From the NCBI RefSeq assembly GCF_003991155.1, contig NZ_CP031293.1: 64,000 nucleotides of DNA. One strand, 5' to 3'. Shown here in pieces: positions 21,407-25,175 of the stretch. The position numbers were made by a program, and so were the translations under genes. The DNA is from Escherichia coli. GTDB taxonomy: Bacteria > Pseudomonadota > Gammaproteobacteria > Enterobacterales > Enterobacteriaceae. The number at the start of each line of letters is the position of its first letter. The first letter of the stretch is position 1. The notes under the pieces are model-generated. The model worked only from the letters and a program-made list of their open reading frames with translations. It did not search any database and was not told the origin of the DNA.

Positions 21407-21832
21407 TGCTGTTGTCTGCTCCTGGTAAATGCTTTTTCCTGCACTATGACACAATTTTGTGTCGGGTTGCATATACCGAAGCCGTTGGTGGGTAACATTT
21501 GTATCAGTGGTTAACGCGCAGCTTAAAAGATCAGGGATTTGCGCTAATGCATTTCGCTCAGCGAGTTCGCGCCCTGGTTGTGTTGAATGGCGTGGCGTTA
21601 TTGCCTCAGTTTGCCTGTAAACAGGGGCTTGCGAACGGGGAACTGGTGCGCCTGTTTGCACCGTGGAGCGGCATACCCAGACCGTTGTATGCTTTACTTG
21701 CGGGGCGAAAGGGGATGCCCGCCATTGCGCGATATTTTATGGATGAGTTAACCACGCGGCTTGCCAACGGGGTCTGAATCGCTTTTTTTGTATATAATGC
21801 GTGTGAAATTTCATACCACAGGCGAAACGATC

Positions 21833-23980: not shown

Positions 23981-23999
23981 ATCCCCTTCTCTGAAAATC

Positions 24000-24032
24000 A
24001 ACGGGCAGGTCACTGACTTGCCCGTTTTTTTA
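24000..24032 (+). terminator. Intrinsic terminator after serA
   Basis: acgggcaggtcactgacttgcccg hairpin followed by a T7 run. Confidence 0.75.
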
Positions 24033-24164
24033 TCCCTTCTCCACACCGTTGCCGCATTGCGCATTCTACTTTGCGAGTCTGCTCCAGAAAATAAATCAAA
24101 GTCAGATCAATGCGTTGTGTTTATTTAATGGGGATTTACGATGGCAGGGCAGCATGGGGCTGTA

Positions 24165-24310
24165 ACGGTAAAGCCCTCACCGAAGCGAGGGCTTGAAGGA
24201 GAAGGGTTATGATGCGACTTGTCATCATACTGATTGTACTGTTACTCATAAGTTTCCCAGCTTATTAACAGTCAGTCTCAGGGGAGGAGTCATCCTCCCT
24301 TACCCTTACT
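24165..24310 (-). ncRNA. sibC: Sib-family antisense RNA antitoxin covering ibsC; ends approximate
   Basis: Inferred from the Ibs ORF on the opposite strand and flanking hairpins (24168-24189 and 24282-24299); boundaries not determinable from sequence alone. Confidence 0.45.
24209..24268 (+). CDS. ibsC: Type I toxin small hydrophobic peptide, Ibs family, 19 aa
   Basis: atgatgcgacttgtcatcatactgattgtactgttactcataagtttcccagcttattaa encodes MMRLVIILIVLLLISFPAY; not in the supplied ORF track (too short); sits in the serA-fau intergenic region where K-12 carries sibC/ibsC (recall). Confidence 0.7.
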   Translation: MMRLVIILIVLLLISFPAY

Positions 24311-24368
24311 CACTAAATTAGGTTAAAGAATCAACGATGTCAATCAGGGCGATGCAGGTGTGTCGCCC

Positions 24369-24917
24369 TCACCACTCCCAGACTTTCGACGGTGTAACCA
24401 CCGCAGGAAGAGGGATATCCCACTCTTCAACGGGGAGTTTTTCCACCAACTGACAATCATGCGCATAACCCACCGGTTGCATTTTATAGTGCTGCCAGTT
24501 TTGTAAGGTCCGATCATAAAAACCACCGCCCATTCCCAGGCGCTGACCGTACTCATCAAAGGCGACCAGCGGTGTGATCAACACGTCTAATCGGGAAAGG
24601 GGTAGCACGTCACGCACATCCAGTTTTGGCTCATGGATCTTCAACCTGTTCATCACCAGTTCGCTTTGCGGATGGTAGTTCAGGAACAGCAAATTACCGG
24701 CACTAAAGGGATGCAAAACTGGAAGATATACGCGCTTACCGGCGCGCCAGAGTTGTTCTATGAGTGGCTGGGTGTCGAGTTCGCCATCAAAAGAGAGGAA
24801 TACAGCGACCATATGTGCCATCACCACCGGAGGATAAGTCATCATCCGGGTAGCGGCTTGTTGACCCATTTCCTGCTGTTGTTCCGGCGTTAACGCACGA
24901 CGACGTTGCCGAATCAT
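24369..24917 (-). CDS. fau: 5-formyltetrahydrofolate cyclo-ligase, ~182 aa
   Basis: ORF 24369..25115 trimmed to MIRQRRRALTPEQQ; an upstream Met (start 24971) is an alternative; the long ORF form would overlap ssrS. Confidence 0.85.
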   Translation of the reverse strand: MIRQRRRALTPEQQQEMGQQAATRMMTYPPVVMAHMVAVFLSFDGELDTQPLIEQLWRAGKRVYLPVLHPFSAGNLLFLNYHPQSELVMNRLKIHEPKLDVRDVLPLSRLDVLITPLVAFDEYGQRLGMGGGFYDRTLQNWQHYKMQPVGYAHDCQLVEKLPVEEWDIPLPAVVTPSKVWEW

Positions 24918-24989
24918 TTTGCGGATTTCTTGTCGGGATAATGTCAGTGGAAGTTCTGGTAGTTGCGTCATGGCTGGTGCCAGATAAGA

Positions 24990-25175
24990 AGGGAATCTCC
25001 GAGATGCCGCCGCAGGCTGTAACCCTTGAACCCTTGGTTCAAGGTGAATGTGTCGTCGCAGTTTTAAGGCTTCTCGGACGGACCGAGCATGCTCACCAAC
25101 CGCGGAGCGCCACATTCTTGTGGTATGAAATATCGGCTCAGGGGACTGGCCCGCTTGCGAACATCTCAGAGAAAT
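24990..25175 (-). ncRNA. ssrS: 6S RNA
   Basis: Minus strand reads atttctctgagatgttcgcaagcgggccagtcccctgagccgatatttcatacc...ggcatctcggagattccct, matching the E. coli 6S RNA sequence as I recall it. Confidence 0.92.

What the first reader, a model, noticed from the sequence alone, without database searches (positions are those of the whole stretch)
24165..24310. Unannotated type I toxin-antitoxin module (ibsC/sibC) between serA and fau
A 19-codon ORF, MMRLVIILIVLLLISFPAY (24209-24268), too short for the ORF track, matches the Ibs family of membrane-toxic peptides. In K-12 a Sib antisense RNA is transcribed from the opposite strand across it. Only one repeat unit is present here. Two hairpins flank the ORF (24168-24189 and 24282-24299).
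Basis: partly seen in the sequence, partly recalled or inferred. Interest (0 to 1): 0.5.

Follow-up and report, generated by a model that had tools for sequence, protein, structure and literature searches.

The report
Known ibsC/sibC toxin-antitoxin locus
This is the well-studied E. coli ibsC/sibC type I toxin-antitoxin pair, a 19-residue membrane-toxic peptide gene overlapped by its antisense RNA antitoxin, sitting at its usual place between serA and fau, so it is real but ordinary.

Summary
The ORF at 24209-24268 (+) encodes MMRLVIILIVLLLISFPAY. A full-length Sib RNA match (Rfam RF00113, 136.5 bits, E 5e-28) lies antisense to it. It is the only Sib unit in the 64-kb window.

The locus aligns without indels to the curated K-12 features sibC (b4446, 141 nt) and ibsC (b4665). 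SibC is 136/141 identical and IbsC 18/19. The intergenic region is in 5421 of 5426 complete E. coli genomes. RefSeq already annotates this exact peptide as IbsC (WP_071525914.1).

The only notable difference from K-12 is a three-base change, AGC to CCA (Ser17Pro). On the antisense strand this is G49-C50-U51 to UGG, the triplet Han et al. 2010 mutated to switch SibC target specificity. It is a common dimorphism: the window's form is in 2789/5426 genomes and the K-12 form in 2165/5426.

Expression, repression and toxicity are inferred from K-12 experiments, not shown for this strain.

Verdict: interpretation supported, already known, low interest.

The parts
24115..24120 (+). Putative ibsC promoter -35 (TTGTGT)
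   Evidence: Inferred. It aligns with TTGCGT upstream of K-12 ibsD and ibsE. It is too weak for the consensus promoter scan. Han 2010 (PMC2943612) reports conserved promoter elements upstream of ibsC and ibsD, but the figure could not be read.
24137..24142 (+). Putative ibsC promoter -10 (TACGAT)
   Evidence: Inferred. A2, A5 and T6 are invariant across the five ibs upstream regions. It lies 6 nt upstream of the inferred +1.
24149..24307 (+). ibsC mRNA (159 nt), ends inferred by homology with K-12
   Evidence: Han 2010 reports a 159-nt ibsC mRNA with an 18-nt 5' overhang beyond the SibC 3' end. Cross-check: their G50, G51 and G53 fall on G at 24198, 24199 and 24201. Predicted fold -63.1 kcal/mol, z = -5.0.
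24171..24194 (-). SibC P7 terminator hairpin (AAGCCCUC...GAGGGCUU, then UACC); on the + strand a stem-loop in the ibsC 5' UTR
Evidence: Inverted repeat I1. It is a 10-bp stem in the SibC fold. Compensatory changes occur across paralogs at 4 of its pairs.
24197..24201 (+). ibsC Shine-Dalgarno core (AGGAG), 7 nt before the ATG
   Evidence: Read from the sequence. It lies inside the TRD2 target region described by Han 2010.
24209..24268 (+). ibsC CDS: 19 codons plus stop, MMRLVIILIVLLLISFPAY
   Evidence: Translation. 18/19 identical to K-12 IbsC. Same coordinates and same peptide as RefSeq WP_071525914.1, 'type I toxin-antitoxin system toxin IbsC'.
24167..24307 (-). SibC antitoxin RNA (141 nt; +1 at 24307, 3' end at 24167)
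   Evidence: Indel-free mapping of MG1655 sibC b4446, 136/141 identical. MFE -55.3 kcal/mol, z = -4.9, with the same predicted structure as K-12 SibC. Covariation in 10 of 44 pairs across six Sib copies.
24240..24262 (-). TRD1 (SibC +46..+68, P5 loop), with the variable triplet U49-G50-G51 at 24259-24257
   Evidence: Domain limits from Han 2010. The triplet differs from K-12 G49-C50-U51. Dimorphic in E. coli: 2789 against 2165 of 5426 genomes.
24193..24209 (-). TRD2 (SibC +99..+115, J1/7), antisense to the ibsC Shine-Dalgarno and start codon
   Evidence: Domain limits from Han 2010. Sequence identical to K-12.
24282..24299 (-). SibC P2 stem-loop (GGGAGGA-UGAC-UCCUCCC); on the + strand the 3' stem-loop of the ibsC mRNA
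Evidence: Inverted repeat I4. Present in both folds. Compensatory changes across paralogs. Two loop bases differ from K-12.
24315..24320 (-). sibC promoter -10 (TAATTT)
   Evidence: T, A and T are invariant in six Sib upstream regions. It lies 7 nt before +1. Only 3 of 6 positions match TATAAT, which is why the scan did not list it.
24338..24343 (-). sibC promoter -35 (TTGACA), 17-nt spacer
   Evidence: TTGAC is invariant in all six Sib upstream regions. It forms the first six positions of the Rfam model.

Best explanation
The segment is the chromosomal ibsC/sibC type I toxin-antitoxin locus of E. coli.

The plus strand gives a roughly 159-nt ibsC mRNA (24149-24307). Its 19-codon ORF encodes a very hydrophobic single-helix inner-membrane peptide.

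The minus strand gives the 141-nt SibC RNA (24307->24167), made from its own promoter. SibC is fully complementary to the ibsC ORF and ribosome-binding site.

SibC makes first contact through two single-stranded elements: TRD1 (the P5 loop, against codons 11-18) and TRD2 (J1/7, against the Shine-Dalgarno and ATG). Pairing then spreads. Translation is blocked and the duplex becomes an RNase III substrate, so IbsC is not made.

If IbsC does accumulate, it depolarises the membrane, lowers ATP and arrests growth.

Shown here: sequence identity with K-12, synteny, ORF integrity, the Rfam match, the conserved fold and the promoter elements.

Inferred from K-12 and Salmonella experiments: transcription of both strands, repression, and toxicity of this Pro17 allele.
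For: - Rfam RF00113 full-length hit, 136.5 bits, E 5e-28.
- The curated MG1655 record has sibC b4446 and ibsC b4665 between fau and serA. They align to the window without indels, with 136/141 RNA and 18/19 peptide identity.
- The same intergenic region is in 5421/5426 complete E. coli genomes and is annotated ibsC in the 29 listed genomes that carry the full region. An identical peptide accession appears.
- The predicted SibC fold is identical for both alleles, z = -4.9 and -5.5. 10 of 44 pairs covary across the window copy and five K-12 paralogs.
- TRD2, the Shine-Dalgarno, the start codon and both promoters match K-12 or are conserved across the paralogs.
- Mechanism: Han 2010, PMC2943612 (TRD1/TRD2, gel shifts, RNase III cleavage, specificity swap).
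- Toxicity: review PMC8309996 (membrane depolarisation within minutes of induction, loss of viability, psp induction).
- Sigma-S RNA polymerase binding at the sibC promoter: PMC4447067.
- Arg3 and Leu11, matching the basic-3 and Leu-11 positions needed for Salmonella IbsA toxicity, are present here.
Against: - Nothing in the sequence contradicts this reading.
- No expression data exist for this strain. The Pro17 peptide and the UGG TRD1 allele have not, as far as I could find, been tested experimentally; the K-12 work used Ser17/GCU.
- No NCBIfam HMM matched the peptide. The consensus promoter scan called neither promoter. Both are limits of those tools on very short or weak elements.
- The physiological role of the module is still unsettled in the literature.
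Confidence: 0.97

Rival explanations
1. The locus is homologous to ibsC/sibC but is an inactive remnant in this strain. The Ser17Pro change in the C-terminal region that toxicity requires would disable the peptide, leaving only an antisense RNA pair with no toxin function.
For: The review of IbsC mutagenesis says residues 6-19, including the C-terminal residues, are needed for toxicity, and position 17 lies there. Natural toxin knock-outs exist at this locus: strain 32F4 has a stop at codon 3, and four of 5426 genomes lack the core.
Against: Pro17 is the more common of the two main alleles (2789 against 2165 of 5426 genomes). Pro occupies the same position in K-12 IbsB (SFPAY) and IbsE (SFPTY), and MG1655 annotates IbsE as a toxic peptide. 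The ORF, Shine-Dalgarno, start codon and promoter elements are intact. IbsC is reported to tolerate extensive mutation without losing toxicity.
Confidence: 0.03
2. A chance short ORF and chance hairpins in an ordinary intergenic spacer.
For: A 19-codon ORF and 7-8-bp inverted repeats are individually common by chance.
Against: Rfam E-value 5e-28. The conserved core motif has 0 chance matches in 100 shuffles. The locus is near-identical to a curated, experimentally characterised K-12 locus at the same map position. Both RNA folds have z about -5.
Confidence: 0

Closest known systems
E. coli K-12 MG1655 sibC (b4446) / ibsC (b4665)
   Same: Same intergenic position (serA-fau), same orientation, same lengths (141-nt RNA, 19-codon ORF) and no indels. 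TRD2, P1, P6, the P7 terminator, the Shine-Dalgarno and the start codon are identical, and the predicted fold is the same.
   Different: Five RNA positions differ. Two are in the P2 loop (17-18, GA here against UG in K-12). Three are the TRD1 triplet 49-51 (UGG here against GCU), which on the coding strand turns Ser17 (AGC) into Pro17 (CCA). There is also one base change in the sibC promoter spacer (24324, T here against C).
K-12 paralogs SibA/IbsA, SibB/IbsB, SibD/IbsD, SibE/IbsE
   Same: Same architecture and fold, and the same peptide signature MM(K/R)...SF.(A/T)Y. The -35 TTGAC is invariant. Pro at the position equivalent to 17 is shared with IbsB and IbsE.
   Different: The RNAs share only 88-110 identical positions of about 141. 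The longest identical run across TRD1 is 14 nt or less, and across TRD2 13 nt or less. That is well short of the 22-25-bp helices Han 2010 engineered to switch specificity. Those paralogs sit in tandem pairs at other loci.
Salmonella Typhimurium IbsA/SibA (preprint 10.1101/2025.05.26.656083)
   Same: A 19-residue Ibs peptide with a basic residue at position 3 and Leu at position 11, both present here. Induction lowers membrane potential and ATP.
   Different: It is at a different locus (yqiK-rfaE). Binding to the Fo a and b subunits and a role in virulence were shown only for the Salmonella protein and have not been tested for any IbsC.

Membership tests
Sib antitoxin RNA (Rfam RF00113, SIB_RNA) | Match to the family covariance model above its gathering score | tested here: met
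   136.5 bits against a gathering score of 56, model positions 1-147 of 147, E 5e-28.
Sib antitoxin RNA (Rfam RF00113, SIB_RNA) | Encoded antisense to, and spanning, the whole ibs ORF and its translation initiation region | tested here: met
   SibC 24307->24167 (-) contains the ORF 24209-24268 (+) and the Shine-Dalgarno 24197-24201.
Sib antitoxin RNA (Rfam RF00113, SIB_RNA) | Conserved multi-stem fold (P1, P2, P5, P6, P7 terminator) | tested here: met
   The MFE fold is identical to K-12 SibC, z = -4.9. RNAalifold over six copies gives 44 pairs, 10 with compensatory changes.
Sib antitoxin RNA (Rfam RF00113, SIB_RNA) | Own promoter giving a ~140-nt transcript | tested here: inconclusive
   -35 TTGACA and -10 TAATTT sit at the positions conserved in all six copies, but the -10 is weak and the scan did not call it. 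The transcript itself cannot be tested from sequence.
Sib antitoxin RNA (Rfam RF00113, SIB_RNA) | TRD1 and TRD2 recognition elements complementary to the cognate ibs mRNA | tested here: met
   Complementarity is automatic for a cis-antisense pair. TRD2 is identical to K-12. TRD1 differs at positions 49-51 together with its target.
Ibs toxin peptides | 18-19-residue, highly hydrophobic peptide with the MM(K/R)...SF.(A/T)Y pattern | tested here: met
   MMRLVIILIVLLLISFPAY is 18/19 identical to K-12 IbsC and aligns with IbsA, B, D and E. It is identical to RefSeq WP_071525914.1, named IbsC.
Ibs toxin peptides | Match to a curated protein-family HMM | tested here: inconclusive
   NCBIfam gave 0 families for the peptide padded to 20 residues. 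The Pfam scan needs at least 30 residues and could not be run. At 19 residues an HMM has little power.
Ibs toxin peptides | Toxic on overexpression (membrane depolarisation, growth arrest) | not testable with these tools
   Shown for K-12 IbsC (Ser17) and Salmonella IbsA in the literature. Not tested for the Pro17 allele.
Type I toxin-antitoxin system | The antisense RNA represses synthesis of the toxin from its mRNA | not testable with these tools
   Shown for K-12 SibC/ibsC by co-transformation, gel shift and structure probing (Han 2010). Inferred here from near-identity.
sibC/ibsC ortholog (as opposed to another Sib copy) | Syntenic position between serA and fau, as a single unit | tested here: met
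   The gene order argP-rpiA-serA-ibsC-fau-ssrS-zapA matches K-12 and STEC299. There is one unit in the window.

The most novel reading that the evidence does not exclude
The three-base dimorphism at SibC 49-51 / IbsC codon 17 splits E. coli about 51% (UGG/Pro) to 40% (GCU/Ser). No intermediate form appeared among the eight sequences compared. It coincides with the triplet shown experimentally to set Sib target specificity. It might therefore be a maintained specificity polymorphism, for example keeping SibC orthogonal to whichever paralogous Sib/ibs copies share the genome, rather than neutral drift at a site that is unconstrained on both strands.
Probability: 0.1. Interest if true: 0.3.

Novelty: already known. 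Interest (0 to 1): 0.06.

Why it matters
It matters little for discovery. The module has been characterised in the literature since 2008, is curated in the K-12 record, and its toxin CDS is routinely called by RefSeq.

Two practical points follow:
1. ORF tracks with a length floor miss it, and the two PGAP records read in full (STEC299, DH1Ec104) carry no Sib RNA feature. A toxin can therefore appear without its antitoxin in such records.
2. The K-12 allele used in all the mechanistic work is the less common of the two main forms at the very triplet that sets TRD1 specificity. Conclusions about Sib/ibs discrimination may need checking on the commoner UGG/Pro17 allele.

Tried and rejected
- The consensus promoter and terminator scan found no promoter on either strand and only the serA terminator at 24000-24026. 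Both module promoters fall below its 4-of-6 rule, so I located them by aligning the paralogs instead.
- The NCBIfam scan of the padded peptide gave no family. The Pfam scan was impossible because it needs at least 30 residues.
- I tried to identify the source genome so I could read its other Sib copies. The best complete genome is only 99.1% identical over 25 kb, so same-genome cross-talk could not be examined. I used the K-12 paralogs as a proxy.
- I considered that the module might be mobile. The 13 plasmid-collection hits are mostly chromosome-sized or very large (0.3-4.9 Mb) records, and the 2 phage-collection hits are a 1.8-kb fragment and a Salmonella chromosomal contig. I rejected the idea.
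- A weak sraA match at 23992-24096 (21.8 bits against a gathering score of 56, E 0.73) overlaps the serA terminator. I dismissed it as chance.
- The primary paper Fozo et al. 2008 (PMC2597788) is not held. Its results are cited through Han 2010 and the reviews.
- I did not run the large protein, metagenome or genome-collection scans because the answer was not in doubt.

Full report
**Observation**

At 19 codons it is below the 20-aa floor of the ORF lister and is not listed.

It also finds a first hairpin with arms at 24171-24178 / 24187-24194, which is 3-5 nt away from the stated 24168-24189.

A scan of the whole window against Rfam gives two hits above gathering score. One is 6S RNA at 24992-25175 (-). 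The other is SIB_RNA (RF00113) at 24343..24193 (-), covering all 147 model positions at 136.5 bits against a gathering score of 56, E 5e-28. The conserved Sib core motif, searched with up to three mismatches, occurs once in the window and never in 100 shuffles. The claim of one repeat unit is therefore correct.

**Identity**

The gene order around the locus is argP, a LysR fragment, rpiA, serA, the module, fau, ssrS, zapA, ygfB, pepP. This matches E. coli strains STEC299 and DH1 and the K-12 MG1655 record. MG1655 carries two curated features between fau and serA: ncRNA sibC (b4446, 141 nt, 'small regulatory RNA antitoxin SibC') and, antisense inside it, CDS ibsC (b4665, 'toxic peptide IbsC').

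The window aligns to K-12 across the whole intergenic region without indels. The K-12 coordinates therefore transfer directly: SibC runs 24307->24167 on the minus strand, and ibsC is 24209-24268 on the plus strand.

SibC is identical at 136 of 141 positions and IbsC at 18 of 19. The 388-bp serA-fau spacer is found at 80% coverage or better in 5421 of 5426 complete E. coli genomes. It is annotated 'type I toxin-antitoxin system toxin IbsC' in all 29 listed genomes that carry the full region. STEC299 is 100% identical over the spacer, and it and strain PAR carry the same peptide under RefSeq accession WP_071525914.1.

The window itself is not from any genome in that collection. The best match over 25 kb is 99.1%.

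**Anatomy in window coordinates**

Han et al. 2010 (PMC2943612) define TRD1 as SibC +46 to +68 (the P5 loop) and TRD2 as +99 to +115 (J1/7, which needs the P1 stem). These map to 24262-24240 and 24209-24193.

They also report a 159-nt ibsC mRNA whose 5' end overhangs the SibC 3' end by 18 nt. That places ibsC +1 at 24149 and its 3' end near 24307. As a check, their G50, G51 and G53, said to pair with SibC C107, C109 and C110, fall on G residues at 24198, 24199 and 24201.

The first hairpin (24171-24194) is the SibC P7 terminator stem. On the other strand it forms a 5'-UTR stem-loop of ibsC. The second hairpin (24282-24299) is SibC P2 and the 3' stem-loop of the ibsC mRNA.

The Shine-Dalgarno core AGGAG (24197-24201) sits 7 nt before the ATG, inside the TRD2 target.

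The consensus promoter scan called nothing, so I aligned the upstream regions of all K-12 paralogs:
- **Sib promoter:** the -35 TTGAC is invariant in six of six copies (24343-24338). It is followed by a 17-nt spacer and the -10 TAATTT (24320-24315), 7 nt before +1.
- **ibs promoter:** a TTGTGT / TACGAT pair (24115-24120 / 24137-24142) with invariant A2, A5 and T6. These assignments are inferences.

The Rfam model is offset from the mapped transcript. It includes the promoter (36 nt upstream of +1) and stops before the terminator.

**Structure**

SibC from the window and from K-12 give the same predicted minimum-energy structure, both at -55.3 kcal/mol (z = -4.9 and -5.5, with no shuffle folding as well). 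An RNAalifold consensus over the window copy and the five K-12 Sib RNAs has 44 pairs. Ten of them keep pairing through changes on both sides, mostly in P2, P5 and the terminator. The ibsC mRNA also folds well below shuffled controls (z = -5.0).

**How it works**

The steps below are established for K-12 and inferred here.
- SibC is abundant, and the sigma-S form of RNA polymerase binds its promoter region (PMC4447067).
- SibC contacts the ibsC mRNA through TRD1 or TRD2, each sufficient on its own. Pairing then extends. The complex is cleaved by RNase III and ibsC is repressed.
- Overproduced IbsC depolarises the membrane within minutes, kills or arrests cells, and induces psp genes (review PMC8309996).
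- A 2025 preprint reports that Salmonella IbsA binds the Fo a and b subunits, blocks proton translocation and needs a basic residue at position 3 and Leu11. The window peptide has Arg3 and Leu11. This target has not been tested for IbsC.

**What differs from K-12**

The five RNA differences are positions 17-18 (the P2 loop) and 49-51.

Positions 49-51 read UGG here and GCU in K-12. On the coding strand this is codon 17, CCA (Pro) against AGC (Ser). Han et al. changed exactly G49-C50-U51 to UGC to redirect SibC TRD1 to ibsD. This natural variation therefore sits on the mapped discriminator.

Because toxin and antitoxin share the same base pairs, the change is automatically compensated in the cognate pair.

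Against the K-12 paralogs, the longest identical run across TRD1 rises only from 12 to 14 nt for SibD and from 8 to 10 nt for SibE. That is well short of the 22-bp helix that was engineered, so discrimination is probably kept.

Two 31-nt queries centred on the triplet, which megablast can only match nearly exactly, find the CCA form in 2789 of 5426 genomes and the AGC form in 2165. Among the eight sequences compared (the window, K-12 and six sampled genomes), six carry CCA, and other substitutions are scattered (L4F, V5A, F16L). Pro also occupies this position in K-12 IbsB and IbsE. The window therefore carries the more common of the two main alleles, and the K-12 laboratory allele is the less common one.

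Disruption is rare but does occur. Strain 32F4 has CGA to TGA at codon 3 and is flagged as a pseudogene. Four of 5426 genomes lack the 66-nt core. One of these, O157:H7 TR01, has a deletion of about 181 bp that removes the segment from just downstream of the ibsC start site through the Sib -10, but leaves the Sib -35. These exceptions do not weaken the assignment.

**Leads that gave nothing**

- NCBIfam gave no match for the padded peptide.
- The plasmid and phage collections gave only mislabelled chromosomal or very large records.
- A sub-threshold sraA hit lies over the serA terminator.
- Fozo et al. 2008 could not be read.

**Verdict**

This is the known ibsC/sibC type I toxin-antitoxin locus in its usual place, carrying the more common natural allele. 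Novelty: already known. Interest: low.

Noticed in passing
window 24257-24259 (IbsC codon 17 = SibC 49-51): A three-base dimorphism, CCA/Pro in 2789 genomes against AGC/Ser in 2165 of 5426. It coincides with the triplet Han 2010 mutated to switch SibC specificity. No intermediate appeared among the eight sequences compared. The pair TTTC-CCAGC-TTA / TTTC-AGCGC-TTA could equally be read as two compensating 2-nt indels.
   Followed up: partly
L011 285-344 (E. coli 32F4, NZ_CM147846.1): A natural nonsense allele of the toxin. Codon 3 is CGA to TGA and RefSeq flags it 'internal stop', while the antisense Sib side is otherwise intact.
   Followed up: partly
L003 about 3173-3206 (E. coli O157:H7 TR01), equivalent to window about 24157-24337: A deletion of about 181 bp removes nearly the whole module but leaves the Sib -35 TTGACA and the ibsC promoter. 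TR01's flanking allele resembles 30COLEC and AR_451 rather than O157 strain Z563. Four of 5426 genomes lack the module core.
   Followed up: partly
window 24193-24343 (-) against 24167-24307 (-): The Rfam SIB_RNA model is offset from the mapped SibC transcript. It starts at the -35 hexamer, 36 nt upstream of +1, and ends before the terminator hairpin. Rfam coordinates therefore should not be taken as the RNA's ends.
   Followed up: yes
L001 and L002 (STEC299, DH1Ec104), compared with L004 (MG1655): These two PGAP-annotated records list the ibsC CDS and the ssrS ncRNA but no sibC ncRNA. Only the curated MG1655 record has it. The antitoxin is therefore unannotated in those records.
   Followed up: yes
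window 24992-25175 (-) and ORF 24369-25115 (-): 6S RNA (ssrS) scores 139.8 bits. The longest-ORF call for fau (248 aa, 24369-25115) runs into ssrS. RefSeq annotates fau as 24369-24971 (200 aa), and MG1655 gives an even shorter 182 aa.
   Followed up: partly
window 21547-21777 (+): A 76-aa 'LysR substrate-binding domain-containing protein' is annotated between argP and rpiA in STEC299 and DH1. It looks like a fragment of a LysR-type regulator rather than a full gene.
   Followed up: no
window 24346-24369: A 7-bp inverted repeat (AGGGCGA / TCGCCCT) overlaps the fau stop codon and lies just outside the Sib -35. There is no T-run after it on the fau strand, and its role is unknown.
   Followed up: no
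window 12000-36999: The window is E. coli, but its best match among 5426 complete genomes is only 99.1% identical over 25 kb, and only 4 genomes reach 99%. The 388-bp ibsC spacer alone is 100% identical to strain STEC299.
   Followed up: partly
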